From positions 7,737 to 71,736 of the forward strand of contig JBAYHW010000003.1 in NCBI GenBank assembly GCA_041665925.1: 64,000 nt of DNA, in the 5' to 3' direction. The translations under genes were made by a program, and so were the position numbers. Under the pieces are notes generated by a model. It made no database searches, was not told where the DNA came from, and was given only the letters and a program-made list of their open reading frames with translations. This stretch comes from Minisyncoccota bacterium. GTDB lineage: Bacteria; Patescibacteriota; Minisyncoccia; Phycocordibacterales; UBA9973. Within the stretch, counting starts at the first letter, position 1, and the number at the start of each line of letters is the position of its first letter. Shown here piece by piece: positions 1,340 to 41,849 of this stretch.

Positions 1340-1693
1340 TTATTTAAAATAAGAAAAAATTGCTGCCAATACGGAAGAAACCCCAAAAATCCAAAATCCC
1401 CATTTTTCTGCTATCCTCCAGGGCTCTTTCTCCATATATTCAATCCCCTCCGGGGTTAAAATTAAAATTGTTCCCCCAGAATCTCCCCAGCGAAAGTACA
1501 GAGATCTTCCATAGTTTACCATTTGATATATGTCGGGTCCCGTTAGTTTGCCACTTGATCTATTAGCAACCTCTCCATATTGCATATTTGTAGAGTTTGA
1601 TTTTTTATACTCCTCATACATTATTTTTGTAGCAATTTTTTCTTTTTTTGTCATATTTATTTTACCTCTCCGATTATCTTTTTTATACGGCAA
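1340..1693 (-). CDS. hypothetical C-terminal tail-anchored protein. The likely start is an internal Met near 1654.
   Basis: ORF with a C-terminal TM helix. The 37-nt overlap with the upstream gene disappears if the internal start is used. Confidence 0.45.
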   Translation of the reverse strand: MPYKKDNRRGKINMTKKEKIATKIMYEEYKKSNSTNMQYGEVANRSSGKLTGPDIYQMVNYGRSLYFRWGDSGGTILILTPEGIEYMEKEPWRIAEKWGFWIFGVSSVLAAIFSYFK

Positions 1694-2433: not shown

Positions 2434-2488
2434 ATTTCCACCTATTTTAACAAGTGCGGTTCTTGTTGAGCCAAATTTTTTAAATATG

Positions 2489-3124: not shown

Positions 3125-3153
3125 ATATAACTTGCAATGTATAATAGTAAAAA

Positions 3154-5199
3154 CTACTGTACATCATTATTGTTTAAAACTTTTATTACAACTCCCTGCA
3201 TTTGAATTTCTTCGTTCGATTTAAATTTCAATGGTTGGTGCTTGGAATTATCTGAGCGAGGATAGAGAACGATGAGACCATTTTCCCTACGATACTCTTT
3301 AATAGTAGCATCATCCCCAATTAGTGCCACAACCTTTTTCCCTTCTTCTGGTCTATAGTTTTTAACGCACAAAACAAGATCACCGTCATTTATTCCTGCT
3401 TTATTCATAGAATCTCCGGAAACACGCAAAACAAAATATTTTGAACCAGAAGACATATAATCCTTTCGAACAGAAATCATTTCTTGAACTGTTGGATCAG
3501 CATACATCAACTCGCCACAACCCACCGATTCAAACACGGGAACTTTTACCATTTCAAAAGTATATGGAGAGGCAATCTCTTCCTTTATCCTCTCTGGGGA
3601 ACTTGTAGGTATAGTCTTGTTATTTATAATTTTTTTGAAATATTCTCGAAGATTGTCGTCAACAATATAAATGTAAGTACCTTTTATTCCCCGAGTCAAA
3701 AGTGTCCGGTATATATTTATGATATATCTCTCTAATTCTTTAGGGTCTGCTACACCAGCGTGACCATTGCGATCACAATATTTACTCTTATCTACTACAA
3801 TCTTATTTTCATCTTTATCATAGGTAAGCTCTGGTCCAACAATGACGCCAACATAATTCATGCCGTAACCCTGGACTGTATGTATACAACCTACTTCATT
3901 AACTGCATTAGGAGAGTTGACCCAATCTTTCGTTTTACTATTCCATCGAAACTTATGCCCCTTTATTTCAATATCAAAATCTTGCTCCGGTACGCCGTTA
4001 GCTGGATTCGTAACCCAGGGCCAAGCAAACCCTGCGACCATACGTGAAAGTCCTAATTTTTTATCTTTTTCCTTTATTGCTTTGTGCATTTCCGACACGT
4101 CATCAAAAATGCTTAGTTCATAATTTTTTAAATCTGGAAACTTTGCTTTTCTTTGATTGAGGGTATCATCGATAAATAGAATATAGTCTTCCCCTGCTTG
4201 AATCCGCATTTGCTTTGTGAGTTGATAAAAGCTGGCACCTTTTTGTCGCAGGTCTACGTCATCAATATCAGCAGGAAGTACACTCTGCCCTTGATCATAA
4301 AAAAACACTTGTCTTTTCGTATTCTTAAGAATCCAATCGAGTTGAGTTGCCTCTCTCGACAATCCCAGTTGTTTATTAATCTCATCGAATGCTTTGAATG
4401 CTGCCCCCAGATTTTTGCGCTTTTTTAGCCTATGTGCTTCATCCACAATAACCAAGTCATATGACTCGTTTGTAATATCATAAGGCCCAATGACCATATT
4501 TGATTTAAGCCCAGGCGTAGCTTTAAACACTTTCTGCAGGGTGCCTCGCAAGCTAGTCATGGGCGCAATCAATGCGATTTTGAGATGCTTCGTGCTCTCG
4601 TGGTCTTTTAAGTATTTTATTAAATATGTCGCCAAGATTGTTTTGCCTGTCCCAGCTACACCTTCTACTACATAAGTAGTGGCTTTCTCATTTTCAATAT
4701 CTTTTACTAATTTTTTAACAAAAATATATTGTTCCTCGGTTAACGCTTTATACGGCGAATACTTGAAAAGATCGCTATTTTCGATCTCATAAATTTCTTT
4801 TCGGATAAGTCCTTTCTTTATTAACTCTTTCCAGATTATTTCACATTTTGCTCGATATTCTGATCTTTGATAATAATTATGATTTCTTATTCCGTCATTT
4901 TTATTCTGTAACATAAGCGACCCCTCAGCAGCTAAATGTTCTATAAGAAAAGCTTCAATATCTAGCGCTGCTGATTTGTTATATGTTTCATCGGTAATTA
5001 TATGAGCTTTCTTTAGCCTTCTGCGTTCATCATTTTCATAGTGCTGTCTACTGCGATTGAAAAAGTTTGTTGTCTCACCCACATATGCCTCATTTGTCGT
5101 TTCGAGCAAATAAACCACGGGCCAATCACATCCGTAGTGATATTTGTGTACTTCTTCAAAACCTTGCGGATTAAATTCAAAAGTTTCTATTTGCGCCAT
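3154..5199 (-). CDS. fusion of a GIY-YIG-like N-terminus, a DUF2075/Schlafen-like SF1 P-loop NTPase and a C-terminal LexA-type S24 peptidase
   Basis: N-terminal YVGETTNFFNRSRQH. Walker A GVAGTGKT and Walker B/DEAH-like LVIVDEAHRL. The C-terminus VLRVSGDSMNKAGINDGDLV...VVALIGDDATIKEY aligns with the LexA catalytic domain, including the Ser in GDSM and the Lys dyad. Confidence 0.8.
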   Translation of the reverse strand: MAQIETFEFNPQGFEEVHKYHYGCDWPVVYLLETTNEAYVGETTNFFNRSRQHYENDERRRLKKAHIITDETYNKSAALDIEAFLIEHLAAEGSLMLQNKNDGIRNHNYYQRSEYRAKCEIIWKELIKKGLIRKEIYEIENSDLFKYSPYKALTEEQYIFVKKLVKDIENEKATTYVVEGVAGTGKTILATYLIKYLKDHESTKHLKIALIAPMTSLRGTLQKVFKATPGLKSNMVIGPYDITNESYDLVIVDEAHRLKKRKNLGAAFKAFDEINKQLGLSREATQLDWILKNTKRQVFFYDQGQSVLPADIDDVDLRQKGASFYQLTKQMRIQAGEDYILFIDDTLNQRKAKFPDLKNYELSIFDDVSEMHKAIKEKDKKLGLSRMVAGFAWPWVTNPANGVPEQDFDIEIKGHKFRWNSKTKDWVNSPNAVNEVGCIHTVQGYGMNYVGVIVGPELTYDKDENKIVVDKSKYCDRNGHAGVADPKELERYIINIYRTLLTRGIKGTYIYIVDDNLREYFKKIINNKTIPTSSPERIKEEIASPYTFEMVKVPVFESVGCGELMYADPTVQEMISVRKDYMSSGSKYFVLRVSGDSMNKAGINDGDLVLCVKNYRPEEGKKVVALIGDDATIKEYRRENGLIVLYPRSDNSKHQPLKFKSNEEIQMQGVVIKVLNNNDVQ

Positions 5200-5202
5200 A
5201 TA

Positions 5203-5550
5203 CTAAAGTTCTGTGTATTTGTTGTGTCGGCCTTTGGCTTTTTTTATGGGGTATTTTTTATTATTTTCCTTCATTTTTTTTCTCAAAGCTTTTTCTATGT
5301 CTATATTTAAATCATCACTCAACAAAAGAACCCAATAAAAAACATCTGCCAGTTCATCCCCGATTTCATTTTTATTGGTTTTGATATATTTTTCAATTTC
5401 TTCTTTCGATTTCCATTGAAAGTGCTCCAGTACTTCCCCTGCCTCAAGAGACAAAGAGATTGCCACATCTTTTGGGTTGTGGAATTGTTTCCAATCTCTA
5501 GCTTCCCTGAAATCATTTATTAATTTTGTAAGAGATTTAATGGGATCCAT
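5203..5550 (-). CDS. MazG-like nucleoside triphosphate pyrophosphohydrolase
   Basis: EAGEVLEHFQWK...ELADVFYWVLLL...KYP motifs. The start was moved to the internal Met, which has an AAGGA/GGAAG RBS. The ORF-track start at 5640 adds a low-complexity N-terminus. Confidence 0.75.
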   Translation of the reverse strand: MDPIKSLTKLINDFREARDWKQFHNPKDVAISLSLEAGEVLEHFQWKSKEEIEKYIKTNKNEIGDELADVFYWVLLLSDDLNIDIEKALRKKMKENNKKYPIKKAKGRHNKYTEL

Positions 5551-5779
5551 TTTATTTCTTCCAATCCTTAATTTGAATCCCGCCGGGGATCTTTTTGACG
5601 ACCACTTTTTGCTTCTCCTTCCAGTTGAGCTTTCGGACAAGATCCATGGGTAAAGTGACAGCGAGCGATGCTCCGCCGACCTTGGTTAACTTCCTTATAT
5701 TGCTACTAGCTGATTTAGTTATTCCCATAAATACTTATTCGTTTACGCATTCGATTACGTACATCATACTCCAGCTAGG

Positions 5780-26702: not shown

Positions 26703-27257
26703 TTAAACTTCTTTTTTATAAAAATGCGCTACGGCAAGTAAAGTAAGTAGCGCAAAGAACGCAGTCAGGGCCATCATGGGAATAGAAATATAGCCACCAA
26801 ATTCCGATACTAAACGCTGATAGCAAGAGACGCCGGAAGCATCACACGGCAAATTAGAACTTTCTCCAAAATAATAAAAGAAATTCTGATACAGAGAAAT
26901 TAGAAACCCAAAACACAAAAGGGGCAAGACATAACGAATAACTTTCCTGTCTTTATCCCATAAAGCAACACCGAACATCAAAAAGGTCGGGAACATAAAC
27001 ACTCTCTGCCACCAACAAAGAGCGCATGCTAAAAATCCAATAATTTCAGAATACACTAAAGGAAAAACCGAAGAAAACAGAGAAATCAAAAAAGCTAGAA
27101 TTAAAAAATGCTTATTTATAAAATCCAAATAAACATTTCCTCCCTTCCCGTTTGACCTAAAGAAAAGTAAAAATATAGCAACAACAGAAAGAACTTGAAG
27201 AAGAATAACTCCTAGCCCGAGAAACACATTGAGATAATGTATAGCTTCAGTGCTCAT
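26703..27257 (-). CDS. DsbB-family disulfide bond formation protein
   Basis: 4-5 TM with ACALCWWQR (CxxC...QR) and a second Cys pair CDASGVSC in a loop. Confidence 0.65.
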   Translation of the reverse strand: MSTEAIHYLNVFLGLGVILLQVLSVVAIFLLFFRSNGKGGNVYLDFINKHFLILAFLISLFSSVFPLVYSEIIGFLACALCWWQRVFMFPTFLMFGVALWDKDRKVIRYVLPLLCFGFLISLYQNFFYYFGESSNLPCDASGVSCYQRLVSEFGGYISIPMMALTAFFALLTLLAVAHFYKKEV

Positions 27258-27258
27258 T

Positions 27259-27648
27259 TTATTCTGGTAAAACGCAAGCAGTTTTCTCGGCTAGTTTTTG
27301 AAGTGGAATTTCTCCGTTCATTCGAGACCCATCAGCAAATTCCCAAGTAGGATAGCCTTCGATTTTTTTATCTGTACAAACTGGTAGCTGTCCTTGCCCA
27401 TTAGCCGTAGAACATTCTACATAAGGAATCAATTTCTGAGAAGAGCCGAAAAGCTTTTTCTGTGACTGACAGTGAGGGCACCAGTAAGCTCCATAAAACA
27501 CAGCACCTTTGTCTTTCAAGCAAGTAGCAAATTCGTCATATTTCCCAGGGCCAGGAGGAGTAGCGTCCGACTGAAGTACAACTGTAGCAATCGTACCCAA
27601 AATTAAAAGACCAACAACCGATATGAAAATTTTTACGTTTTTATCCAT
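27259..27648 (-). CDS. membrane-anchored thioredoxin-fold thiol-disulfide oxidoreductase (DsbA/BdbA-like)
   Basis: WCPHC active site and an N-terminal TM. It is adjacent to the DsbB-like gene. Confidence 0.7.
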   Translation of the reverse strand: MDKNVKIFISVVGLLILGTIATVVLQSDATPPGPGKYDEFATCLKDKGAVFYGAYWCPHCQSQKKLFGSSQKLIPYVECSTANGQGQLPVCTDKKIEGYPTWEFADGSRMNGEIPLQKLAEKTACVLPE

Positions 27649-31963: not shown

Positions 31964-32374
31964 CTAGATAGTTTTCAGTGGATCATTTTGGATGAAATTA
32001 ATGTGTGCCTTTCTATCCCTTACACCGACGACTCCCTTATATAAATACATTAATCCACGCTGCTCAGCTTTATCCAAGCCACCAACGAGAGAATTAAATT
32101 TAATCTTAGGAACCTGATCACCATCACAACCAAAAATCTTGTTCATTAAATCATCACCGTCTAAATCCCTACCATTTTTATCTTTTCGACGTCCTGTTTT
32201 AGTTTTTACTTGATCAACAACCTCAATAAATGCATTCAATATCGCACCCTTAAAATCATTACTTGATAAGCGTGAAGCAGTGCGAGCTACGCCCTTACCC
32301 TTACCTTCGTCACCCCATTGAAGGCCGATGATCGGAATAATTTTAGAAATTTTTTTTGCTTTCATATTACGCAC
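31964..32374 (-). CDS. hypothetical 136-aa protein with a PurA-type P-loop motif QWGDEGKGKG but no further PurA similarity
   Basis: Motif identical to the adenylosuccinate synthetase GTP-binding loop. The remaining sequence is unrelated. Confidence 0.4.
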   Translation of the reverse strand: MRNMKAKKISKIIPIIGLQWGDEGKGKGVARTASRLSSNDFKGAILNAFIEVVDQVKTKTGRRKDKNGRDLDGDDLMNKIFGCDGDQVPKIKFNSLVGGLDKAEQRGLMYLYKGVVGVRDRKAHINFIQNDPLKTI

Positions 32375-32497: not shown

Positions 32498-33133
32498 ATG
32501 AAAAAACTTTTAAATAAGAAACTATTTATTTCAAGTTTCTTGATCCTCTTCCTAGTAATGCAGTTCTACGCTTTGACAGAGTACGCTTTTGCTGTCACTG
32601 ATAACGTCGTCGTTACACTTGACGTGGATTCCGGAATTACAATTTCGGATGGTGCAGCGGTTACCATGGCTCCGAACATTAGCATCACTACAGATAGCTC
32701 CATAGGTAGCTCTGCATGGACTGTCATTACAAATGGGGCAAGCGGATATTCACTTGCAGTCAAGGCTTCCGCATCTCCAGCGCTCGTCTCCGGCAGCAAT
32801 TCTTTTGCTGATTACACTGAGGCTGTGGCTGGTACTCCGGAAGCTTGGTCTGTTGCTTCCGGTGATAAAGAGTTTGGCTATTCTGCATACGGTACCGACA
32901 CTTCAACGGCAGAATATGGAGCAGCCGCTACGTGCGGAGCTGCTGGCGTACCAGATGTCGGTCAGAATTATGAAGGGTTTGCAACTTCAGACAACATAAT
33001 CGCCACAAGAGCTACTGTTACTCCTGTCGCTGGTATAGCCACGACTATCTGCTTTGCTGCTGAACAAAATGGAGTTTTTGCTCCAGTGGGAACCTACACG
33101 GCAACAATAACGGGCACGGCTGTCACTTTATAA
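32498..33133 (+). CDS. secreted WxL-domain-like cell-surface protein (csc-like cluster member)
   Basis: Signal peptide. SAWTVITNGASGYSLAVKASASPAL and a C-terminal YTATITGTAVTL. Paralog of 34131..34907. Confidence 0.5.
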   Translation: MKKLLNKKLFISSFLILFLVMQFYALTEYAFAVTDNVVVTLDVDSGITISDGAAVTMAPNISITTDSSIGSSAWTVITNGASGYSLAVKASASPALVSGSNSFADYTEAVAGTPEAWSVASGDKEFGYSAYGTDTSTAEYGAAATCGAAGVPDVGQNYEGFATSDNIIATRATVTPVAGIATTICFAAEQNGVFAPVGTYTATITGTAVTL

Positions 33134-33148
33134 TGAATTAGTCATCCT

Positions 33149-34126
33149 TTGATCTTCCTTATGAAAAAAACCTTATACAGCTCCATCTTTGGAATATTAG
33201 CTATAAGCTTTTTTTTCTTACCTGACCACTCATACGCTTATACAAAGATTAAGGTTGACGTTACTCCCCAAAATGACTTTGTGGTAGAACCAGGTAAAAC
33301 TGAAGTTTTTCTAAATCCTGGAGAAAGTATGGTAAAAAATATTTCAGTTACGAACCGAGTCAATAAGACTGTGAAGTTTAAACTGAGCACAGAAGATTTC
33401 GTCGGTACAGATGATGCAAATCAACCAGTCATACTTTTAGGAGACACGCACAGCCCGTATTCACTCAAGGATTTTATTACACCTGAAATTACAGAATTCA
33501 GTTTGGAGTTCGGGGAAAAAATCACTATCCCCGTCTCTGTTTCCGTACCTCTGAACGCTGAACCACGCGGATTTTACGGAGCCTTGATTGTCTCCAATGA
33601 TCCAGACAAATTAACAAATGAAGTCATTTCTGAAGCCCAGGGTAAAACTCGCATTGTTTCTCGAATCGGTTCTTTGTTTCTTCTAAAAATAAACGGTGAA
33701 GGTATTGAAAGTGGAGATATTGAAAACTTTAAAGTCATAGGTCCATCAAAATTATTTTATAGTGAAAGACCAGATGGATTCGAGATTGCCTACAAAAACA
33801 CCGGGAACGTTCACTTAGTTCCCTACGGTACGATTACTATCAAAAATATATTCGGGAAAGCAGTCGCTGTATTGCCTGTCGATGCTTATTTTGCACTCCC
33901 TGACTCTGTTCGTTATCGAGAGGTAATGTGGGAAGATGGCTTTAACCTTGGACGTTATACCGCTCACCTTTCTCTTTATAAAGGATACAATGAAGAATAC
34001 GTTGACGCTAAAGTTTCTTTTTGGATAATTCCGTGGAAAATATTAATACCAGTATTTGTCGGAATATTACTTCTCGTCACACTGGTTTATTATATTTTGA
34101 CACGTTTTGAATTAAAGAGAAAATAA
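33149..34126 (+). CDS. cell-surface protein with an N-terminal signal and a C-terminal TM anchor (DUF916/CscA-like architecture)
   Basis: Signal peptide, a beta-rich ectodomain, and a C-terminal hydrophobic helix plus KRK stop-transfer. Confidence 0.5.
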   Translation: MIFLMKKTLYSSIFGILAISFFFLPDHSYAYTKIKVDVTPQNDFVVEPGKTEVFLNPGESMVKNISVTNRVNKTVKFKLSTEDFVGTDDANQPVILLGDTHSPYSLKDFITPEITEFSLEFGEKITIPVSVSVPLNAEPRGFYGALIVSNDPDKLTNEVISEAQGKTRIVSRIGSLFLLKINGEGIESGDIENFKVIGPSKLFYSERPDGFEIAYKNTGNVHLVPYGTITIKNIFGKAVAVLPVDAYFALPDSVRYREVMWEDGFNLGRYTAHLSLYKGYNEEYVDAKVSFWIIPWKILIPVFVGILLLVTLVYYILTRFELKRK

Positions 34127-34130
34127 TATA

Positions 34131-34907
34131 ATGAAAAAGTACGCTTCCTTTTTCCAAATAAAGCGAAGTGTTGCTCTGATTCTTACCTTCTCCACATTGT
34201 CGATTCTTCCTTCTCTTATTTTTGCTCAGACAATGCAAAGCACCACTTATAAAATAATCACTGACAGTGTCAATGTCGGAGGAGATGACAATTCCGCGAG
34301 TACAAATTATATAATTGGTGATACTTTGGGCGAGCTAAGCTCTGGAGATTCTAATAGTGCGAATTATTATATGCATGCAGGTTTTTGGCAGATGCAATCA
34401 AGCTATATTTCTATTACTAGCCCATCTGATTTGGCACTTACGTCGATCGGAGGCATCAATGGTGAAAATACTGAAGGTACCATGTCCTGGACCGTATTGA
34501 CTGACAATGTGGCAGGCTATTCTATGAGCATTAAAACACTTACCTCTCCTGCCCTGGCGTCAGCCGAAGATTCTTTTGATGATTATGCCCCAGCGGGCGC
34601 GGATCCAGATTATAATTTTTCAATTGCTACTTCTGTGTCTGAATTCGGATTTACTCCTGAAGGTGCAGATACAAACTCACGTTTCAAAGATAATGGATCG
34701 AGCTGCAATACGGGCTCGGGTGAGACCTCGGCTAAGTGTTGGGACGGACTTTCATTAGTAGATAAAATAATTGCGGGCAAAAGCTCGAGCAATCATCCTT
34801 CGGGCAGTACGACGACAGTGAGATTCCGTGCTGAATCTGGTAGTGCCCATATTCAAACTTCTGGTGCTTATTCGGCTTCAATAGTAGTAACTGCGGTCAC
34901 TTTGTAA
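34131..34907 (+). CDS. secreted WxL-domain-like cell-surface protein, paralog of 32498..33133
   Basis: MSWTVLTDNVAGYSMSIKTLTSPALAS and a C-terminal YSASIVVTAVTL. Confidence 0.5.
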   Translation: MKKYASFFQIKRSVALILTFSTLSILPSLIFAQTMQSTTYKIITDSVNVGGDDNSASTNYIIGDTLGELSSGDSNSANYYMHAGFWQMQSSYISITSPSDLALTSIGGINGENTEGTMSWTVLTDNVAGYSMSIKTLTSPALASAEDSFDDYAPAGADPDYNFSIATSVSEFGFTPEGADTNSRFKDNGSSCNTGSGETSAKCWDGLSLVDKIIAGKSSSNHPSGSTTTVRFRAESGSAHIQTSGAYSASIVVTAVTL

Positions 34908-34909
34908 AA

Positions 34910-36232
34910 ATGCAAACAAAAATTATTTTTTTCAGTGCCCTGCTAATCGCGATTATATTTATGGGAAGCGGGAGCTTTGCTAGTGCCGACGCAAACTCAA
35001 TCCAAATAAACCTTGGAGTCGATGGTTGCAATCTAAACGGTATTTGCGAGGCGGGACTGGGCGAAACAATCGCCAATTGTGCAGTAGACTGTACACCTCC
35101 TTCCCCTGCTGGAAATGCCACGAACACGACAGGCTTTAAATTGCCTGATGTATACAATGTGACTGTTTCTCCTGAACTTTATAGTGCAATTATTACTTGG
35201 AATACAGGCAGGAGCACGATTAGTACTGTGAGATGGGGCACAACGCCCGAGACAAAGGATGGGACAACCCGTAACATTTTTTTTGCTCGTAATCATAAAA
35301 TTCAAATCATCAATCTCGCTCCCGGCACCATGTATTATTTTACTCTTGAGAATTATGATATCTATGGAAACAATTATAGTACTCCCCCTACTTATTTCTT
35401 TACAAAATTTTTAATAGACACAGCATACCCATTGAATCCTAGAAATGTCAGAACTTCTACCGAAGAAAAAGGTATTAGGATTTTGTGGTTAAATCCTGCG
35501 GATGAAAATTTTTCTTATGTGAGAATAATGCGACATCAAAATAAATTTACCGGAGATCCATTTGTGGGCAAATTGATTTATGAAGGAAATAGTGAAAATT
35601 TTTTAGACACAAACGTGTTAGCCGGGAAAAAATATTTTTACTCACTTTTTTCTCGTAATTTAGATGGTAGGTATTCTAGCGGGGTCGGAACACAAGGTAT
35701 CGCTTTTTCTAAAATAATAATTCCAAAAATTTCAGAACCAGAACCCGAGAATATTACTGAAAGACAAGTTGGAGATTTCTTTGTACACCAATACAATCAA
35801 CCGGTCGTGCTTCTTGCAAAAGAATCTATTATTGAAATTAAAAACAACACAAATACTATAGTAGATACAAGTGACAAGACTGAAGCGGATGATTATTTGG
35901 TTGTCTCATATGAAGATGGTGAAAAGTTTGGACAATATTTGTTTTCTTATAACCAAGATAGTGCAAGATACCAAAGTGTGGTCTCTCCATTACCTCGAAC
36001 TGGAAAATATACTTTTGAAGTACTTAGGTTTGTCAATAATGAGAAAAAAATAATTGCCCAGGGCTGGGTTCTAGTAGAAGAAGCCCAGGAAAATATTAGG
36101 ATAATTCCCGTGAAAGAACCTCCGGCGTACCCTTATCTTATTTTCCTATGGATTTTGCTTCTAATCCTCTTAATTTTAGCGATTTTTATATTACTTCGTA
36201 GGCGAAAAAACGAAGAATCACAAGGGTTATAG
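34910..36232 (+). CDS. surface protein with FN3-like domain(s) and a C-terminal TM anchor
   Basis: Signal peptide, TWNTGRSTISTVRWGTTPE...YYFTLENYDIYGN FN3-like block, and a C-terminal LIFLWILLLILLILAIFILLRRRK. Confidence 0.55.
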   Translation: MQTKIIFFSALLIAIIFMGSGSFASADANSIQINLGVDGCNLNGICEAGLGETIANCAVDCTPPSPAGNATNTTGFKLPDVYNVTVSPELYSAIITWNTGRSTISTVRWGTTPETKDGTTRNIFFARNHKIQIINLAPGTMYYFTLENYDIYGNNYSTPPTYFFTKFLIDTAYPLNPRNVRTSTEEKGIRILWLNPADENFSYVRIMRHQNKFTGDPFVGKLIYEGNSENFLDTNVLAGKKYFYSLFSRNLDGRYSSGVGTQGIAFSKIIIPKISEPEPENITERQVGDFFVHQYNQPVVLLAKESIIEIKNNTNTIVDTSDKTEADDYLVVSYEDGEKFGQYLFSYNQDSARYQSVVSPLPRTGKYTFEVLRFVNNEKKIIAQGWVLVEEAQENIRIIPVKEPPAYPYLIFLWILLLILLILAIFILLRRRKNEESQGL

Positions 36233-36377: not shown

Positions 36378-36761
36378 ATGGAAAAACTTAAAAAAGTTCT
36401 ATCATTAAGTGAGGCATCAAAAATTTCAGGTTATCACCCTGATTATTTGAGTGCTCTCATCCGTAAAGGAGAGCTCAGGGGCGAAAAAACGGGAGGAACT
36501 TGGTTTACCACAGAAGATGATGTCAGGGATTATATATTCAAACAAAAAGTGAGGCACAACCGTCCAGCCTTTTTTGATTTCTTGTCGCAAAAGCGAACTC
36601 AAAATATTGTAATTTATTCTGGAATTATATTCTGTCTCATTTCCCTGCTCGGTTTTTATTTCTATGGAATAAATCATAAGAATTTTACTCCTGAAGCCAA
36701 GAAAACTTTATCTCCTGACACAGAAGCAATAAAAGAAATAAAAACAGAAATTAACCAATGA
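36378..36761 (+). CDS. small HTH (excisionase/MerR-like) protein with a C-terminal TM helix
   Basis: LSLSEASKISGYHPDYLSALIRKGEL HTH, then one TM. Confidence 0.45.
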   Translation: MEKLKKVLSLSEASKISGYHPDYLSALIRKGELRGEKTGGTWFTTEDDVRDYIFKQKVRHNRPAFFDFLSQKRTQNIVIYSGIIFCLISLLGFYFYGINHKNFTPEAKKTLSPDTEAIKEIKTEINQ

Positions 36762-39655
36762 GAAAAATATTTTTACAAAAAAAATATTCACTTGTAAAAA
36801 AAATCGCTCTCACTATTTTCTCCTTAACTTATATTTTCGTTGCGATATTTTTTCACAACTCAAATGCTTACGCAGTTTTTAATAAGCAAATAAATTATCA
36901 AGGAAAACTTACAAATTCGAGCAGTGTTGCGGTTCCTGACGGATCATACAATATGGAGCTTGCACTCTACACCGTGGATTCTGGTGGCACTGCGATTTGG
37001 ACAGAGACCAGGATCGAAGCGAATCGCGTCGCAGTAGCTAACGGATTATTTAGTATATTGCTTGGCGAAGTTTCTTCACTAGCTTCCATAGATTTTAATC
37101 AGACGCTTTATCTTGGCGTAAACATTGGCGGAACTACAAACACTCCGACTCCTACCTGGGACGGCGAAATGGCTCCGAGAAAAAAACTTGGATCTGTTCC
37201 TGCAGCTTTTGAGGCAGTGAATGCGCTTACTGCCACTGCCGGGTTTACCGTGTCTGGAGGAAACCTCGTCTCCCCTATTCTCGTCGGCGGTTCTGGTACA
37301 ACTCAAGACCTGACCCTTCAAACCACGACAGGTGTGGGTGCCTCCGGTGCTGATATGCATTTTCTCGTCGGCAACAACGGTGGCACGGAAGCCATGACGA
37401 TACTAAATGATGGGAATATGGGCATAGGAATATTAAGCCCAAGCGCTGTTCTCCACCTTAAGGCCGGCACAGCATCTGCCGGTACTGGACCACTTAAATT
37501 TACCGCGGGGGCTAATTTGACCTCTCCTGAATCGGGCACATTAGAATTTGATGGCAGTAATTATTTTGGTTCAGTTGAAAGTGTTGGAACAAACTACACT
37601 TCCCAGTACCCATCTGCACATTCTAGCACTTACGTCAAATCTACATCGAGCTATAGCGCTAACTTCGAACCCTGGTTTGCTACCGATCCAGCTAAATCAC
37701 TGACGGGCGACTGGACAAATACGCAATGGGTGTCAGGTAGTGGTTCCCCTGCTTCGCAAAGATTGCATATTGATCTCGGTTCAGCTACAGTTATCAAAAG
37801 AATATATTACGAAAATTCTCATACCTCCGGCGGGTTTACCACTACAGGAGCCAAAAATTTTACCTTGTGGGGCTCTAATGATTCATCGGCTTTTTCGGAC
37901 ACAACCTATGGTTCAGATACAAACTGGACACAACTCTCTACTTCCGCTTCCCAATTTGATCAACACGCCGCATCTAATACCGCTGACCCCAAATATATAA
38001 CTGTTACGAACTCTACCGCATATAGATACTATGCAATAAAAATTGCAGACAACTGGGGCTACGCCGACTATATGGGCATTCGGCGCATTGAATTACAAAC
38101 AGCTGACTCCGTTACTGCGGACAGGCTAGGGTTGGTTATGGATAATGGCACCAGGTTGACTTCGGGTAGAATGCCTTACATAACTACCGATGGCAGACTA
38201 AAAGATACAACAAACTTTGTTTTTGATGGTACCAACCTGGGCATTGGTGATTCTTCACCGGATTATATGCTTGATGTTGCTGGCACTGCAGGATTTGATG
38301 GATTACTAACGGCCACAGCTGGACTAAACATTAGCAACGGAGCGACTTCGGCTGGGGTGCTCACTCTTTTGGAAGATACAGACGATGGTAGCAACTTTGC
38401 ATCTTTCCAAGTTCCTGCACTAGCGGCCAATACTGTGTATGTGTTGCCTGCCAATGACGGTGATGCATCCCAAGTGCTTACCACTAACGGTTCTGGGACA
38501 TTAAGCTGGGCGGCTGCATCTGCGGGCACGCCTACAGCGATTACAGTCGCCAACGAAGCGGCGGACACGACTTCATTTATAAGTTTCTTTACCGCGGCGA
38601 CGGGTGATCTCGGGCCAAAAACAAATGCAGCGCTTACCTTTGATGCTTCGACGGCGAAGCTTAGCGCAACTCAACTGGGTTCCACTGCAACGACAGGCAC
38701 TGCTCCCCTCACCGTAGCTTCTACCACGGTCGTAACAAATTTAAATGCGGATTATTTGGACGGACTGGACGGTTCCGCTTTCACTTCGCTTATTAATGAT
38801 GTTATTGGTAAGACCTCTTCCCTGCTCGGCTTTGCCCAATTTGGTGGCGATGGTTCTGACGGCGCTGGCCCAGCTTCAGGAGCGTTAACCTCCGATCCGA
38901 AACAATACACCAGCTGGACAATCACTGGAGCTGTTACTGTAAGTACTTCAGCGCCAGCGGGGTTGTTTGTGGGCGTGCAAGGCACCCTTACGTTAGATAC
39001 GGGCGGAAGTATTTCAGCAAACGGCAAAGGGCATGACCCCGGGAGTCCCCTTAACACAACCACTGGTATTGGAGAAAATTGTTTAGGTAATGTTAGTCAA
39101 ACCATGGAAGGAGGGTGTATTACAGGGGCTGGTGGAGGTGGTGGTGCCGATTCAGCTAATGCTGACGGGGCAGCTGGTGGAGGTGCGGGAGGTACGGGAG
39201 GTACGGGAGCAACACACGCTGGTGTCTCTGGTGGTGCTGCGGGGACAACAAGTGTAGCCAAAAAAACAGCAGCTAGGTTGGTGAAAGAATATTTGTTTTA
39301 CAATCCTTGGGCCAGTGGTAGGGGTTTAGTTGCGGGAGCAGGAGGAGGGACGGGCCGTACCTATGGCACTGGTGGTATGGGGGGAGGAATAATATATATT
39401 GAAGCAGACACTGTAACCATAACTCCAACTACAGCTGTTGTTACAGCGAATGGAGAGAATGCTGCCAATGATTCAAGTGGTAACGGTGGCGGCGGCGGCG
39501 GTGGCGGTGGTCTTGTGTGGATACGCGCTCGAACTCTAAGTGGGGTCAACACTACCACAGTTACTGCGAACGGCGGTACAGGAGGCACGTCAACTACAGG
39601 GTCGGCTGGAGGTAATGGCGCTGCTGGCGCGGTGATTATCGAAGATATTGATTAA
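36758..39655 (+). CDS. giant secreted protein with fibre-like repeats, a discoidin (F5/8 type C) domain and a Gly-rich C-terminus
   Basis: Signal/TM at the N-terminus. Discoidin-like block WTNTQWVSGSGSPASQRLHIDLGS...YYAIKIADNWGYADYMGIRRIELQ. C-terminal poly-Gly tract encoded by (ggc/ggt)n at 39481-39510. Confidence 0.7.
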   Translation: MRKIFLQKKYSLVKKIALTIFSLTYIFVAIFFHNSNAYAVFNKQINYQGKLTNSSSVAVPDGSYNMELALYTVDSGGTAIWTETRIEANRVAVANGLFSILLGEVSSLASIDFNQTLYLGVNIGGTTNTPTPTWDGEMAPRKKLGSVPAAFEAVNALTATAGFTVSGGNLVSPILVGGSGTTQDLTLQTTTGVGASGADMHFLVGNNGGTEAMTILNDGNMGIGILSPSAVLHLKAGTASAGTGPLKFTAGANLTSPESGTLEFDGSNYFGSVESVGTNYTSQYPSAHSSTYVKSTSSYSANFEPWFATDPAKSLTGDWTNTQWVSGSGSPASQRLHIDLGSATVIKRIYYENSHTSGGFTTTGAKNFTLWGSNDSSAFSDTTYGSDTNWTQLSTSASQFDQHAASNTADPKYITVTNSTAYRYYAIKIADNWGYADYMGIRRIELQTADSVTADRLGLVMDNGTRLTSGRMPYITTDGRLKDTTNFVFDGTNLGIGDSSPDYMLDVAGTAGFDGLLTATAGLNISNGATSAGVLTLLEDTDDGSNFASFQVPALAANTVYVLPANDGDASQVLTTNGSGTLSWAAASAGTPTAITVANEAADTTSFISFFTAATGDLGPKTNAALTFDASTAKLSATQLGSTATTGTAPLTVASTTVVTNLNADYLDGLDGSAFTSLINDVIGKTSSLLGFAQFGGDGSDGAGPASGALTSDPKQYTSWTITGAVTVSTSAPAGLFVGVQGTLTLDTGGSISANGKGHDPGSPLNTTTGIGENCLGNVSQTMEGGCITGAGGGGGADSANADGAAGGGAGGTGGTGATHAGVSGGAAGTTSVAKKTAARLVKEYLFYNPWASGRGLVAGAGGGTGRTYGTGGMGGGIIYIEADTVTITPTTAVVTANGENAANDSSGNGGGGGGGGGLVWIRARTLSGVNTTTVTANGGTGGTSTTGSAGGNGAAGAVIIEDID

Positions 39656-39674
39656 TTAAATTATTAAATAAAGA

Positions 39675-40787
39675 ATGAAAAAAAATAAACTTACAATCTT
39701 GATAATTCTCGTCTTAATATTTGCAGTGAGTTGCGGGTTTGCTAGTGCAGAAGAAATTCTGCCTGTTCCTCCAACGGAACAAACTTCGACGACTCCTGCT
39801 GACCCGGCACCAGAAGACACAAGTACTCCGCCTGCGGAAACTCCTCCCGTGACACCGGATCCCCAAACTCCACCCGCTGGAACGCCAGACCCAGGCACCG
39901 AAACCGGAACTCCCGCCGAAGACCCTGTCGTGCCACCAGCCGAAGCTCCTGCAGACCCTGCGCCAGAGATCCCCGTGGAGCCCATCCTGCCACCAGAGGC
40001 GCCAGTCGTTGTTGAAGAAACAGGCGACACCAATCCGCCGAATCGCATCAATGATTTGTCGCTCGAACGAGCGGGGCCGAAATCCGCGGATATTTCTTGG
40101 ACTGTGCCAGACATTGATGTAAAAAGTTATGATGTTCGTATATCACTGAAAGATCTCACGGAATCCAATTGGAGTAAGGCAGTCCAAATCACCGGCGGAG
40201 AAAATTCCAAAGAAGAAGGCGACGTCGAGATGGCAAGCTTGAGTGACTTGCCTCAAAACACGACGCTTTATGTCGCCGTGCGGACTTATGACAAGTCCGG
40301 CAACCCCTCCCCTATTTCCAATGTTCTTGAAATTGAAACCGAAGGCAAAGTAGAAAAAAGCAGGATTGCCGAGCTACGAGCAGGCGGAGCGGATGATGAA
40401 AACTTAAGTCCAGAAAATAGCGGGGTTGTCCGGCTGGTCTTGCAAGAAGAGGGTACTAAGTCCCCTATCTCCGACGAGTTAATCTTTGTGAATTTCATAA
40501 ATAAAAGAACGGGTGTAAGCACCGGAGGCGCTGTCACCGACGGCATGCTCGCTATGGAAATTCCGGCAGGAGAATATACAGTCAAGCTCATACTGCCGCC
40601 GACACTAAACGTCGCGGACGAATTGCCGACATTCGATATGGAAGAAGGTGGAGATGTGGATCTCGGTATTGTCAGGTTGACGCCCTCAGGTATGGCTGAA
40701 AACACAGATGGCTCTCTTTCTTTTGTAATCAAACTTTTGTTTGAAATAATTAAACTCTTACAAGAAATATTAACTAAACTTGGATAA
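39675..40787 (+). CDS. secreted Pro/Thr/Glu-rich protein with an FN3-like domain
   Basis: Signal peptide, PETPP-rich linker, and ISWTVPDIDVKSYDVRI...LYVAVRTYDKSGNPSP FN3 block. Confidence 0.6.
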   Translation: MKKNKLTILIILVLIFAVSCGFASAEEILPVPPTEQTSTTPADPAPEDTSTPPAETPPVTPDPQTPPAGTPDPGTETGTPAEDPVVPPAEAPADPAPEIPVEPILPPEAPVVVEETGDTNPPNRINDLSLERAGPKSADISWTVPDIDVKSYDVRISLKDLTESNWSKAVQITGGENSKEEGDVEMASLSDLPQNTTLYVAVRTYDKSGNPSPISNVLEIETEGKVEKSRIAELRAGGADDENLSPENSGVVRLVLQEEGTKSPISDELIFVNFINKRTGVSTGGAVTDGMLAMEIPAGEYTVKLILPPTLNVADELPTFDMEEGGDVDLGIVRLTPSGMAENTDGSLSFVIKLLFEIIKLLQEILTKLG

Positions 40788-40790
40788 CAA

Positions 40791-41849
40791 ATGTTGGGAC
40801 GATTGTTAAAAAAAATATTTCGGACGGAAGAACGTTTCAATCGTTTTATTATATTTATTTTGGCACTTTTGGCTGTGTTCGCACTTATGTGGCTCGCGAG
40901 CCGAGTATTTAAAAATGTGCCTTTTATAAGCACGCCGGAAGAAAATTCTGACAAGTGGCTAGACGATACTTTCAATTGGCAAAATTTAGATAAGACTATA
41001 TACGCGGTTCCCGAAAATATCTATCCTCGCGGGTTCAATCTTTTGTTCGTCGCCGATGATTTTCTGTCCTTCGATGAGTTCAAGGTTTCTGTGAAAAAAA
41101 TTGTTGCGGAGATGAAGAAAGTTGAACCCTGGAAAAGTCATTCCGAAATCAATATTTTCATGATTTATCAAAATGATCCGATTTTGTGCGAAGTAAAAGA
41201 AGAAAAAATGTATGCACCGATGCTAAAGTGTGGCAAAGATTTGATTAAACTAGTGCAGACATTACCCTTAATCAAGGTAAAAGTAATCGTCGTTTCGAGA
41301 GAACAATTTGTTTCTTGGTCTAACACCTCGAGACTAGAGAATACTTTTGTATTTTATAGTCTGCCCGCAAATAAAGAAGAAGACGCTTTTAACTACAAAA
41401 TATTTTTACACGAGCTAGCTATGGGCTTCGGATTGCGTGAAGAAATGCGAAGCATTATGGCGGAGTCTGGGTCAGCTCCAGCACGCCCTGAAGGGCCAAA
41501 CTGCGCGCCTACGGTAGATATTGCCAAAGATTGGTGGGGTGATTTTGTGCGCCGGGCTGACAGTACTCTCGTCTTTAGCCGGGCAAAAAATGATGTTGGA
41601 TTTTATTTTGGTTGCGCCGGTAACCAAGATTACATCCGTCCAACTCAAAAATCCCTGATGAATATCCAAGATTTTCCAGATGCAGAGACCTATGGACCGG
41701 TTTCAGAAGATTATTTGAAAAAAGTTTTACAATATTGCTTCTCAGGCAAAATATATGACAAAAAAACTGATTCAATATTCTTTGAACAATATAAAGAGTT
41801 CAAGGCTTGTTTAGGAGAAGAACAAACCTCTCTTTCTGACTCTATTTAA
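40791..41849 (+). CDS. membrane-anchored hypothetical protein
   Basis: N-terminal TM. No confident domain. LHELAMGFG is not a canonical HExxH. Confidence 0.5.
   Translation: MLGRLLKKIFRTEERFNRFIIFILALLAVFALMWLASRVFKNVPFISTPEENSDKWLDDTFNWQNLDKTIYAVPENIYPRGFNLLFVADDFLSFDEFKVSVKKIVAEMKKVEPWKSHSEINIFMIYQNDPILCEVKEEKMYAPMLKCGKDLIKLVQTLPLIKVKVIVVSREQFVSWSNTSRLENTFVFYSLPANKEEDAFNYKIFLHELAMGFGLREEMRSIMAESGSAPARPEGPNCAPTVDIAKDWWGDFVRRADSTLVFSRAKNDVGFYFGCAGNQDYIRPTQKSLMNIQDFPDAETYGPVSEDYLKKVLQYCFSGKIYDKKTDSIFFEQYKEFKACLGEEQTSLSDSI

What the first reader, a model, noticed from the sequence alone, without database searches (positions are those of the whole stretch)
32498..36232. csc-like surface complex cluster with two WxL-like paralogs in a CPR-type genome
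There are four co-directional secreted proteins. Two are paralogs with WxL-domain-like signatures (sWTV.T...GYS.s.K and a C-terminal ..TAVTL). One has a DUF916-like architecture with a signal peptide and a C-terminal TM anchor. One is an FN3-containing protein with a C-terminal anchor. This mirrors the cell-surface-complex (csc) clusters of lactobacilli and enterococci, which mediate non-covalent cell-wall attachment and adhesion. It is followed by an HTH mini-protein and giant discoidin and FN3 surface proteins (36758-40787). For an episymbiont this is a plausible host-attachment locus.
Basis: partly seen in the sequence, partly recalled or inferred. Interest (0 to 1): 0.55.

Follow-up and report, generated by a model that had tools for sequence, protein, structure and literature searches.

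The report
Chaperone-built surface fibre operon of Paceibacteria
Four neighbouring genes in an ultrasmall (CPR, Paceibacteria) bacterium most likely build a thin surface fibre from two pilin-like proteins, with help from a membrane-tethered helper protein that is a distant relative of one found in gut Gram-positive bacteria; it is a stripped-down version of a pilus system first described in 2026.

Summary
Window 32498-36232 carries four co-directional secreted proteins: A (211 aa), B (321/325 aa), C (258 aa) and D (440 aa).

- **A and C are paralogs** (BLASTP E=2e-22; hhalign 99.9%).
- **B** has two Ig-like domains and a C-terminal membrane helix.
- **D** has tandem FnIII domains and a C-terminal membrane helix.

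The csc/WxL interpretation is half right.

- **B is a true remote homolog of WxLIP/CscA (DUF916-DUF3324).** WxLIP 9i1y/9i25 is the top Foldseek hit. A diverse B-family profile hits it at E=4e-12. hhalign gives 98.5% over both domains.
- **A and C are not WxL proteins.** None of 123 family members match Pfam WxL. hhalign gives about 1%. Neither protein contains a W-x-L tripeptide.

Best reading: a minimal, usher-less, chaperone-assisted Pam-type pilus or surface fibre. Polymerisation is inferred, not shown. It is a new variant of a known kind, of moderate interest because it links Pam pili to WxL clusters.

The parts
32498..33133 (+). ORF A (211 aa): secreted single-domain pilin-like protein, candidate major fibre subunit. 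Signal peptide covers about aa 1-32 (..EYAFA|VTDN). A conserved N-terminal strand lies at aa 35-46 (DNVVVTLDVDSG, nt 32600-32635). There is a conserved Cys pair (C146/C185) and a conserved C-terminal strand, TYTATITGTAVTL.
   Evidence: ORF. Paralog of C. The family has 358 database relatives, all annotated 'hypothetical', with a single precomputed Pfam entry (PF18998) on one 280-aa member. Alignment A4 shows L41, V43, G46, C146 and C185 invariant. The most conserved 10-aa windows are the C-terminal strand (0.90) and, among the top five, the N-terminal strand (0.76, family mean 0.64). 0 of 52 members match Pfam WxL.
33149..34126 (+). ORF B (325 aa from TTG 33149; 321 aa from ATG 33161, as deposited): signal peptide, two Ig-like beta-sandwich domains (aa 28-146 and 167-289 of the 321-aa form), a low-confidence loop at 149-166 followed by the highly conserved strand SRIGSLFLL (nt about 33605-33691), and a C-terminal TM helix at aa 292-320 (nt about 34034-34120) with a KRK tail. 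Membrane-tethered WxLIP-type / PapD-like chaperone candidate.
   Evidence: AF2 model pLDDT 79.8. Foldseek: WxLIP 9i1y/9i25 E=1.5e-11, then CU chaperones CfaA, CsuC, Caf1M, FimC and PapD at 1e-8 to 1e-5. Diverse profile against PDB sequences: EfmWxLIP1 E=4.2e-12. 92 of 132 relatives match PF06030. hhalign against WxLIP: 98.5%. The superfamily has 6059 50%-identity clusters at E<=1e-3.
34131..34907 (+). ORF C (258 aa): secreted PamT-like pilin. Signal peptide covers aa 1-34. An N-terminal region (aa 35-90, nt 34233-34400) carries two conserved S-x-N-Y beta-hairpin motifs and is disordered in the monomer model. The C-terminal pilin domain (aa 91-258) has a Cys pair C192/C203 and ends ..VVTAVTL.
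34910..36232 (+). ORF D (440 aa): signal peptide; N-terminal strand IQINLGV (aa 31-37, nt about 35000-35020) that resembles the N-terminal strand of A; a four-Cys motif (C40, C46, C57, C61); two tandem FnIII domains (about aa 80-262); a further beta-rich region; a C-terminal TM helix at aa about 407-429 (nt about 36128-36196) with an RRRK tail. PamR-like anchor/terminator candidate.
   Evidence: Pfam on the window protein. 36-38 of 46 orthologs match fn3 or Pur_ac_phosph_N. The profile hits titin, neogenin and DCC tandem FnIII with two stretches. The four Cys are invariant in alignment A5. N-terminal motif shared with A. The LPRTG at aa 361 is not conserved and lies 45 aa before the TM helix, so it is not a sorting signal.
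36378..36761 (+). ORF E (127 aa): N-terminal helix-turn-helix (aa about 1-60) plus a single TM helix (aa 77-98). Conserved member of the module. Its stop codon overlaps the start codon of F (ATGA).
   Evidence: HTH_17 E=3e-5; TIGR01764 excisionase-type HTH 6e-4. An ortholog sits between D and F in most loci. The HTH and the TM position are conserved in 33 sequences.
36758..39655 (+). ORF F (965 aa): large secreted or anchored tail-fibre-like protein. The N-terminal ~200 aa are conserved. The remainder is variable, here a discoidin-like domain (aa about 296-445) and a Gly-rich C-terminal region. Candidate adhesin or specificity determinant.
   Evidence: DUF5000 3.1e-9; F5_F8_type_C 3.1e-4. Orthologs of 976-1422 aa follow E; the 997- and 976-aa orthologs in L001/L002 (one contig in two assemblies) carry Peptidase_S74, the tail-fibre intramolecular chaperone domain. 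Only aa 1-200 give tblastn matches across loci. The Pam paper reports a 'tail fibre-like protein' consistently next to pam operons.

Best explanation
The locus encodes a minimal, usher-less, chaperone-assisted surface fibre. It is a Pam-type pilus variant of a Paceibacteria (CPR) bacterium.

1. A, B, C and D are exported by Sec.
2. B stays tethered in the cytoplasmic membrane by its C-terminal helix. It exposes two Ig-like domains homologous to DUF916-DUF3324 (WxLIP) and shaped like PapD/FimC chaperones.
3. B's flexible loop and the conserved strand after it (aa 149-177) are proposed to complete the incomplete Ig fold of newly exported A and C. This is donor-strand complementation.
4. A, the small first-gene subunit, is proposed to polymerise head-to-tail. 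Its conserved N-terminal strand (VxVTLxV) would fill the groove of the preceding subunit, next to that subunit's highly conserved C-terminal strand.
5. C, the PamT-like paralog with an extra N-terminal S-x-N-Y hairpin module, would sit at the distal tip.
6. D would end growth and hold the fibre. Its N-terminal strand (IxINLxV) mimics that of A, its two FnIII domains form a stalk, and its TM helix anchors in the membrane.
7. The conserved downstream pair is part of the same module: E, a membrane-bound HTH protein, and F, a tail-fibre-like protein with a conserved N-terminus and a variable C-terminus. F probably supplies binding specificity.

**Shown here:**
- gene content and synteny;
- paralogy of A and C;
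- homology of B to WxLIP;
- HMM-level relationship of C to PamT;
- pilin-like predicted fold of C and chaperone-like predicted fold of B;
- tandem FnIII plus TM architecture of D.

**Inferred:** the B-subunit strand complementation, polymerisation of A, the order C-A(n)-D, and a role in host attachment.
For: - **C is related to PamT.** NF058579 scores E=1.5e-11 for the window protein. All 71 family members match, with a best E-value of 1.6e-15.
- **A is a paralog of C's pilin domain.** It carries an extra conserved N-terminal strand upstream of the aligned core. The terminal strands are among the most conserved windows in the A family. The Pam paper reports the same pattern for the donor strand and its binding site in Pam pilins.
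- **B resembles a tethered chaperone.** It has two Ig domains, a TM helix and a disordered loop before a near-invariant strand. Its fold matches WxLIP first and then CU chaperones. Sequence-profile homology to WxLIP is significant. For WxLIP, AlphaFold2 predicts (PMC10599100) that a loop strand inserts into and completes the beta-sandwich of its partner protein; a solved WxLIP-WxL complex, 9i25, is in the PDB.
- **D matches PamR in architecture.** It has tandem FnIII domains, a C-terminal TM helix and an N-terminal beta-strand, as described for PamR.
- **The components match the Pam model.** That model needs no usher and uses membrane-anchored chaperones, a single-domain tip pilin and an FnIII membrane tether. 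Pam pili themselves were solved by cryo-EM.
- **Synteny is strong.** A-B-C-D(-E-F) is conserved in 52 of 64 species loci while the flanking genes differ.
- **A tail-fibre-like neighbour is present**, as reported next to pam operons.
- **Divergent loci bridge the two systems.** L066 and L067 combine B-family paralogs with 361-370-aa pilin-like proteins. The 361/362-aa ones carry the same S-x-N-Y N-terminus as C.
Against: - **No filament has been seen** for this organism or for any member of its class.
- **Polymerisation and the B-subunit contact are inferred.** No complex prediction could be run.
- **The PamT match is weak.** It scores 44 bits against an equivalog cutoff of 240 and covers only the N-terminal half of the model.
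- **The defining Pam pilins are absent.** There are no two-domain PamA/PamB-type pilins, and there is one chaperone rather than two.
- **B and D match no Pam-named NCBIfam model**. Whether such models exist is unknown.
- **B's closest solved relative points the other way.** WxLIP is described as a stable partner of a non-polymeric surface protein, not as a transient chaperone.
- **The motif shared by the N-termini of A and D is short** and typical of beta-strands. Its background rate is 0.7 per 1000 aa.
- **ATP synthase genes are not adjacent** in the stretch examined upstream, although the paper reports them next to pam operons.
Confidence: 0.6

Rival explanations
1. A csc/WxL-type non-polymeric surface complex. 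B (WxLIP-like) is a permanent membrane anchor. It holds monomeric A and C on the cell surface by strand complementation, and D is a separate anchored adhesin. There is no pilus.
For: - B's best structural and sequence relatives are WxLIP proteins.
- WxLIP forms a stable complex with WxL proteins (PDB 9i25) and is proposed to stabilise them at the surface.
- The gene architecture of small secreted paralogs next to a DUF916-DUF3324-TM gene matches genuine clusters in Enterococcus and Listeria.
- Nothing here demonstrates polymerisation.
Against: - A and C fail every WxL test.
- C matches PamT and CU-type pilins, which are polymerising subunits.
- A has a conserved N-terminal extension strand, as self-polymerising pilins do, and D carries a look-alike strand.
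- There is no LPXTG partner or sortase in the module.
- The related CPR system does form filaments.
Confidence: 0.27
2. A phage-derived or mobile tail-fibre module. The cluster would be a prophage remnant whose tail-fibre-like protein F and accessory proteins are not a cellular appendage.
For: - The F orthologs in L001/L002 carry the Peptidase_S74 tail-fibre chaperone domain.
- E has an excisionase-type HTH.
- F's C-terminus is hypervariable.
Against: - The six genes are conserved in order in dozens of species.
- The flanks are housekeeping genes that differ between genomes: RF-1/FtsEX in one case, S16/KhpA/TrmD in another.
- No phage structural, integrase or replication genes lie next to the cluster.
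- A to D carry signal peptides and membrane anchors typical of cell-envelope proteins.
Confidence: 0.03
3. Functionally unlinked secreted and cell-envelope proteins, for example wall or S-layer-associated structural proteins, that happen to be neighbours.
For: All four are annotated 'hypothetical'. The window proteins A to C have no significant Pfam hit, and D's FnIII matches fall below Pfam's cutoffs.
Against: - Synteny is tight, with 2-28-nt gaps, across 52 of 64 species.
- The folds are complementary: a chaperone-like protein with pilin-like proteins.
- Homologous components co-occur in both the Pam and the WxL systems.
Confidence: 0.05

Closest known systems
Pam pilus system of CPR bacteria (Candidatus Mycosynbacter amalyticus; Troman et al., bioRxiv 10.64898/2026.03.03.709456, 2026)
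   Same: - CPR host and Sec-exported components, with no usher.
- A PapD/FimC-like chaperone carrying a C-terminal TM helix (B, like PamC/PamD).
- A single-domain pilin related to PamT (C; NCBIfam hit in 71 of 71 family members).
- A tandem-FnIII protein with a C-terminal TM helix and an N-terminal strand (D, like PamR).
- Conserved Cys pairs in the pilins.
- A tail-fibre-like gene next door.
   Different: - No two-domain PamA/PamB/PamE pilins. Both subunits here are single-domain (about 180 and 225 aa when mature).
- One chaperone instead of two.
- D is larger than PamR (48 against 33 kDa) and has an extra Cys-rich motif and a third domain.
- The PamT match is far below the equivalog cutoff.
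- The host is class Paceibacteria/Nomurabacteria. The paper reports Pam pilins mainly in Saccharimonadia and Microgenomatia and never mentions Paceibacteria.
- The gene order differs, and ATP synthase is not adjacent in the stretch examined.
csc / WxL cell-surface clusters of Lactobacillales and Bacillales (Siezen 2006, PMC1534035; Hassan & Williamson 2023, PMC10599100; PDB 9i1y, 9i25)
   Same: - B is a remote homolog of WxLIP/CscA over both the DUF916 and the DUF3324 domains, and it has the same C-terminal TM helix.
- Small secreted paralogous beta-sandwich proteins are encoded next to it.
- The proposed contact, in which a loop strand of the DUF916 domain completes the partner's sandwich, is the same principle.
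   Different: - A and C are not WxL domains by HMM, profile-profile, motif or fold tests.
- There is no LPXTG protein (CscD) and no sortase.
- The host is not a firmicute.
- A peptidoglycan-binding role is untested.
- Here the partners look like polymerising pilins.
Chaperone-usher pili of Gram-negative bacteria, especially archaic Csu and alternate CFA/I types (PDB 7zl4, 5d6h, 4y2o)
   Same: - The predicted fold of C is closest to CsuA/B and to Fim/Pap pilin domains.
- The predicted fold of B matches the CsuC, CfaA, Caf1M, FimC and PapD chaperones.
- A has an N-terminal extension strand and a C-terminal strand ending at the C-terminus, as donor-strand-exchange subunits do.
   Different: - There is no outer membrane and no usher gene.
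- The chaperone is membrane-tethered.
- There is no significant sequence similarity to PapD-family chaperones. With the diverse B-family profile the only Fim-related PDB sequence matches are FimA pilins at E of 0.5-0.9, which is not significant.
- An FnIII-TM protein is the proposed anchor.
RbmA, the Vibrio cholerae biofilm scaffold (tandem FnIII; PDB 4kkp)
   Same: D has two tandem FnIII domains, as do RbmA and the RbmA-like PamR.
   Different: - D's family profile did not retrieve RbmA by sequence.
- D has a signal peptide, a Cys-rich motif, a third domain and a TM anchor.
- No structure prediction was available for D.

Membership tests
WxL / csc cluster | At least one protein with a C-terminal WxL domain (Pfam PF13731) carrying two Trp-x-Leu motifs | tested here: not met
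WxL / csc cluster | A DUF916-DUF3324 protein with a C-terminal transmembrane helix (WxLIP / CscA) | tested here: met
   Met at superfamily level. Foldseek's top hits are 9i1y/9i25 at E=1.5e-11. A diverse profile hits EfmWxLIP1 at E=4.2e-12. 92 of 132 relatives match PF06030. hhalign gives 98.5% over both domains. The TM helix lies at 292-320. The window protein alone is below Pfam detection.
WxL / csc cluster | A small LPXTG-anchored protein (CscD), and occurrence in Lactobacillales/Bacillales | tested here: not met
   There is no LPXTG sorting signal in A, B or C. The LPRTG in D is not conserved and lies 45 aa before the TM helix. The host is a Paceibacterota MAG.
Pam pilus (CPR) | Two-domain major pilins of the PamA/PamB type (nine-strand N-terminal sandwich, donor linker strand, truncated Ig C-terminal domain) | tested here: not met
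   Only two pilin-like genes are present and both are single-domain (A 211 aa, C 258 aa). There are no further paralogs in the 64-kb window. Proteins of 361-370 aa that look like two-domain pilins occur only in the divergent loci L066 and L067.
Pam pilus (CPR) | PamT-type single-domain pilin (NCBIfam NF058579, equivalog cutoff 240 bits) | tested here: inconclusive
   The match is significant but sub-threshold. The window's C scores E=1.5e-11 and 44 bits, aligning aa 15-136 to model positions 8-127 of 241. 71 of 71 family members match, best 1.6e-15. This makes C a homolog, not an equivalog.
Pam pilus (CPR) | PapD/FimC-like chaperone with a C-terminal TM helix (PamC/PamD) | tested here: met
   Met by architecture and fold: two Ig domains plus a TM helix, and matches to the CU chaperones CfaA, CsuC, Caf1M, FimC and PapD at E of 1e-8 to 1e-5. 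Direct comparison with the PamC/PamD sequences was not possible because those sequences could not be obtained.
Pam pilus (CPR) | PamR-type tether: tandem FnIII domains, a C-terminal TM helix and an N-terminal beta-strand | tested here: met
   Met by architecture. fn3 or Pur_ac_phosph_N matches in 36-38 of 46 orthologs. The profile matches tandem-FnIII proteins with two stretches. There is a TM helix plus RRRK tail. The N-terminal strand motif resembles that of A. Sequence homology to PamR itself was not tested.
Pam pilus (CPR) | Assembly into donor-strand-exchanged filaments | not testable with these tools
   This needs complex prediction (AF-Multimer or AF3) or experiment.
Classical chaperone-usher pilus | An outer-membrane usher (PF00577) and a soluble periplasmic PapD-family chaperone (PF00345) | tested here: not met
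   No usher-sized beta-barrel gene lies in the module. B gets no PapD Pfam hit and is membrane-tethered.

The most novel reading that the evidence does not exclude
The WxL/csc clusters of Firmicutes and the Pam pili of CPR bacteria are two branches of one ancient, very widespread pathway in single-membrane bacteria. The B superfamily has more than 6000 clusters at 50% identity. In this pathway a membrane-tethered DUF916-DUF3324 chaperone completes incomplete Ig-fold surface subunits and hands them on, with no usher. The Paceibacteria four-gene operon would be its minimal polymerising form: a thin fibre of A, tipped by C, tethered by D and carrying a variable tail-fibre-like adhesin F. This reading would reinterpret WxLIP as a pilus-type chaperone. 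It would also give most of the largest CPR class a previously unannotated host-contact appendage.
Probability: 0.35. Interest if true: 0.75.

Novelty: new variant of a known kind. Interest (0 to 1): 0.58.

Why it matters
- **A candidate host-contact apparatus.** CPR/Patescibacteria live attached to other microbes. How most of them touch their hosts is unknown beyond type IV pili and the Pam pili described in 2026. This module is conserved across many Paceibacteria/Nomurabacteria species and is annotated as 'hypothetical' everywhere. It is therefore a concrete, testable candidate in a class with few cultured members.
- **A link between two poorly understood systems.** The helper protein is shown here to be homologous to WxLIP (DUF916-DUF3324) of enterococci, listeriae and lactobacilli, while its partners look like chaperone-usher or Pam pilins. 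That offers a mechanistic hypothesis for both systems: strand complementation by a membrane-tethered chaperone. No paper in the searched library mentions WxL together with CPR pili, and only one 2013 review contains both 'WxL' and 'donor strand'.
- **Small enough to test.** The system has only four core genes, which makes heterologous reconstitution feasible.

Tried and rejected
- **Pfam and NCBIfam on the window proteins alone.** There was no WxL, DUF916 or DUF3324 hit. That would have wrongly refuted the DUF916 idea. Only a profile from diverse representatives recovered it: the close-homolog profile A1 scored E=0.43, whereas the diverse profile A3 scored 4e-12.
- **afdb50 fold search.** The library was unavailable, so AlphaFold models of WxL proteins could not be compared. 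Solved structures were used instead.
- **Looking for Pam chaperone or tether models in NCBIfam.** I scanned 70 close and 132 diverse B relatives and the L066/L067 proteins. Nothing matched, and I cannot tell whether such models exist.
- **Profiles of the A and C families against PDB sequences.** No meaningful hit.
- **A possible motif resemblance to WxL.** The WxL hairpin 'VQVTDxRGxxxGWxLSV' looks a little like 'WTVxTNxxxGYSLxVK' in A and C. hhalign did not align these segments, so I treat it as anecdotal.
- **LPRTG in D.** Rejected as a sortase signal, because it is not conserved and is in the wrong position.
- **ORFs at 1657-2433 and 2489-3124.** They have the same lengths as C and A but are unrelated: an RNase H-like protein and a membrane protein.
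- **Promoter and terminator scan.** No clear promoter upstream of A and no convincing terminators, so it was uninformative.
- **G (39675-40787) and H (40791-41849).** Neither has a counterpart in any of the 67 related loci, so they are not part of the conserved module.
- **Pam protein sequences.** They could not be obtained from the paper or its supplement.

Full report
**1. What is in the sequence**

Window 32498-36232 holds four co-directional ORFs separated by 2-28 nt:

| ORF | Coordinates | Length |
|---|---|---|
| A | 32498-33133 | 211 aa |
| B | 33149/33161-34126 | 325/321 aa |
| C | 34131-34907 | 258 aa |
| D | 34910-36232 | 440 aa |

- All four start with Sec-type signal peptides.
- B and D end in a hydrophobic helix followed by basic residues.
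- A and C are paralogs. BLASTP gives 33% identity over 150 aa, E=2e-22. hhalign between the two family profiles gives 99.9%, E=5e-32.
- Downstream lie E (36378-36761), a 127-aa HTH protein with one TM helix. Its stop codon overlaps the start of F (36758-39655), a 965-aa protein with a discoidin-like domain. Then come a 370-aa fn3 protein and a 352-aa protein.
- The same proteins are deposited as hypothetical proteins WCT44_02210/15/20 of a 'Candidatus Paceibacterota bacterium' MAG.

**2. Is it more than chance?**

A scan of one genome per GTDB species with the B-family alignment returned 64 loci. Nearly all come from Nomurabacteria, Paceibacterota, Minisyncoccia or Nealsonbacteria MAGs; a few carry evidently wrong bin labels.

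- In 52 of the 64 loci the order is pilin-B-pilin-D.
- Nine of the other twelve are cut by contig ends.
- E and the N-terminus of F usually follow.
- The flanking genes differ between genomes: RF-1/FtsEX in one case, S16/KhpA/TrmD in another.
- G and H have no counterparts elsewhere.

The conserved unit is therefore A-B-C-D-E-F.

**3.

On the window proteins alone, Pfam finds no WxL, DUF916 or DUF3324 at E<=1. Going further splits the verdict.

*(a) B is a remote homolog of WxLIP.*
- Its AF2 model (pLDDT 79.8) has two beta-sandwich domains, a disordered loop at 149-166 and a TM helix at 292-320.
- The best solved-structure matches are the E. faecium WxLIP entries 9i1y and 9i25 (E=1.5e-11). Chaperone-usher chaperones follow (CfaA, CsuC, Caf1M, FimC, PapD; 1e-8 to 1e-5).
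- A profile of close homologs barely sees WxLIP (E=0.43).
- An exhaustive HMMER search showed that the family is very large: 6059 clusters at 50% identity.
- A profile of 132 diverse representatives hits EfmWxLIP1 at E=4.2e-12.
- 92 of those 132 representatives match Pfam PF06030 (WxLIP_PGBD, formerly DUF916).
- I fetched genuine WxL clusters from Enterococcus and Listeria plasmid records. hhalign of the B superfamily against their DUF916-DUF3324 proteins gives 98.5%, E=1.5e-15, over 256 columns covering both domains.

*(b) A and C are not WxL proteins.*
- 0 of 52 A-family and 0 of 71 C-family members match Pfam WxL at E<=1.
- hhalign against genuine WxL proteins gives 1.0% and 1.2%.
- Neither protein contains a W-x-L tripeptide.
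- The solved WxL chain 9i25_A exists in the PDB. It is not among the listed fold matches of the C model.

**4. What A and C are**

- NCBIfam matches C to NF058579, 'CPR-type pilus protein PamT': E=1.5e-11, 44 bits against a cutoff of 240, over the N-terminal half of the model.
- All 71 C-family members match that model.
- The model comes from a 2026 preprint. It solved two pilins of Ca. Mycosynbacter amalyticus by cryo-EM (PamA and PamB, which assemble by donor-strand exchange). It proposed an operon with membrane-anchored PapD/FimC-like chaperones (PamC/D), a single-domain tip pilin (PamT), a minor pilin (PamE) and an RbmA-like tandem-FnIII tether with a C-terminal TM helix and an N-terminal strand (PamR). 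A tail-fibre-like gene lies nearby.
- In C's AF2 model the domain at aa 90-258 is confident (pLDDT 85-93). The N-terminal region at aa 30-88, which carries two conserved S-x-N-Y hairpin motifs, is disordered.
- Foldseek gives only weak hits, but they are of the same kind.
- A aligns with C's pilin domain from 'SGITIS' onward. Upstream of that it has a 10-12-residue strand, xTDxVxVTLxV, directly after the signal peptide.
- In the A family the most conserved 10-residue window is the C-terminal strand (0.90). The N-terminal strand is also among the top five windows (0.76, against a mean of 0.64). The Pam paper reports the same pattern for the donor strand and its binding site.

**5. D, E and F**

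- D's family matches fn3 or Pur_ac_phosph_N in 36-38 of 46 members.
- Its profile hits tandem-FnIII proteins with two stretches.
- Four Cys near the N-terminus are invariant.
- Directly after its signal peptide D has the strand IQINLGV. This follows the pattern of A's VVVTLDV, and the motif recurs at that position in orthologs of both families. The pattern is short, so it counts only as suggestive.
- E has a conserved HTH and a conserved TM position.
- F is conserved only over its first ~200 residues. The F orthologs in L001/L002 carry the tail-fibre Peptidase_S74 domain.

**6. Most likely mechanism**

The components match those of an usher-less donor-strand system:
- a membrane-tethered two-Ig 'chaperone' (B);
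- two incomplete-Ig-type subunits, one with a plain N-terminal extension (A) and one PamT-like with a tip module (C);
- an FnIII-TM tether with a look-alike N-terminal strand (D).

I propose the following.
1. B's loop and strand (aa 149-177) complement A and C after export.
2. A polymerises through its N-terminal strand.
3. C caps the distal end.
4. D terminates the fibre and anchors it.
5. F provides variable binding specificity.

The homologies, the predicted folds, the architectures and the synteny are shown here. The contacts, the polymerisation, the subunit order and the function are inferred by analogy with Pam pili, with WxLIP-WxL (PDB 9i25) and with chaperone-usher systems.

The main rival is a WxL-type, non-polymeric complex in which B permanently holds A and C. 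I give it about 0.27. It differs only in whether A polymerises.

**7. Comparison with known systems**

- **Pam operon.** The module is not a canonical member. It lacks two-domain PamA/B/E pilins and has one chaperone rather than two. Its PamT match is far below the equivalog threshold. It occurs in Paceibacteria, which the paper does not mention.
- **csc/WxL cluster.** It is not a member, because it has no WxL domain and no LPXTG protein.
- **Chaperone-usher pilus.** It is not a member, because it has no usher and its chaperone is tethered.
- **What it shares.** It has homologous or isostructural parts with all three.
- **Bridging loci.** The divergent loci L066 and L067 combine two B-family paralogs with 361-370-aa pilin-like proteins. 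The 361/362-aa ones carry the same S-x-N-Y N-terminus as C. This supports continuity between this module and Pam-like operons.

**8. Novelty and interest**

I rate this a new variant of a known kind. The most interesting by-product is the demonstrated homology between the helper protein of this pilus-like module and WxLIP. No paper in the searched library mentions WxL together with CPR pili, and only one 2013 review contains both 'WxL' and 'donor strand'.

I could not test whether PamC and PamD themselves are DUF916-DUF3324 proteins, because their sequences could not be obtained.

Interest is 0.58. Everything downstream of the homology and fold results is still inference.

Noticed in passing
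window 26703-27648 (- strand): A DsbB-like gene (PF02600, E=1.2e-5) and a thioredoxin-fold gene (E=3.8e-4, below Pfam's cutoff) lie about 5 kb upstream of the cluster. They could supply extracytoplasmic disulfide formation for the conserved Cys pairs of A and C and the four invariant Cys of D.
   Followed up: no
window 34910-36232, aa 38-61 of D: A Cys-rich motif, GCNxNGICExGxGExxxxCxxDC, has four invariant cysteines in all 46 orthologs. It sits between the N-terminal strand and the first FnIII domain. Its function is unknown.
   Followed up: partly
L066:4303-9598 and L067:3784-9506: These are divergent operons whose B-like protein is 25-28% identical to the window's B. Each has two B-family paralogs. 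The 361/362-aa proteins begin with the same S-x-N-Y hairpins as C and end in a pilin-like C-terminal strand. L067 also has a 370-aa protein with a similar C-terminal strand but no S-x-N-Y motif. None hits an NCBIfam Pam model. They may be intermediates between this module and canonical Pam operons.
   Followed up: partly
related genome with locus tags WC609_03070/03075 (proteins P0404 and P0393); L004, L022 and L042 show about 700-nt gaps between the A hit and B: The A-type subunit gene is tandemly duplicated in some relatives, as often happens with major pilin genes.
   Followed up: no
window 38001-40000: GC content rises to 0.515, against about 0.38 elsewhere. This region covers the Gly-rich C-terminal part of F and the Pro-rich N-terminal part of G. 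The long antisense ORFs there (for example 39656-40114 on the minus strand) are probably composition artefacts.
   Followed up: no
window 31964-32374 (- strand): A 136-aa ORF combines a Hypoth_Ymh domain (E=6e-12) with an N-terminal stretch resembling the adenylosuccinate synthetase P-loop (GLQWGDEGKGKG; E=7e-4). It may be a fusion or a gene remnant, and it is transcribed divergently from the cluster.
   Followed up: no
window 36378-36761 and 36758-39655: The stop codon of E, a membrane-anchored HTH protein, overlaps the start codon of the tail-fibre-like F by 4 nt. E is conserved between D and F in most genomes. It is unexplained why an HTH protein with a TM helix is coupled to a giant surface protein.
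   Followed up: partly
window 1657-5640 (- strand): The window starts with an RNase H-like 258-aa protein, a 211-aa membrane protein, a 681-aa protein and a 145-aa protein. From reading the translations only, the 681-aa protein looked like a nuclease-helicase with a C-terminal LexA/S24-like part, and the 145-aa protein looked MazG-like. No search was run on them. This may be a defence or mobile island.
   Followed up: no
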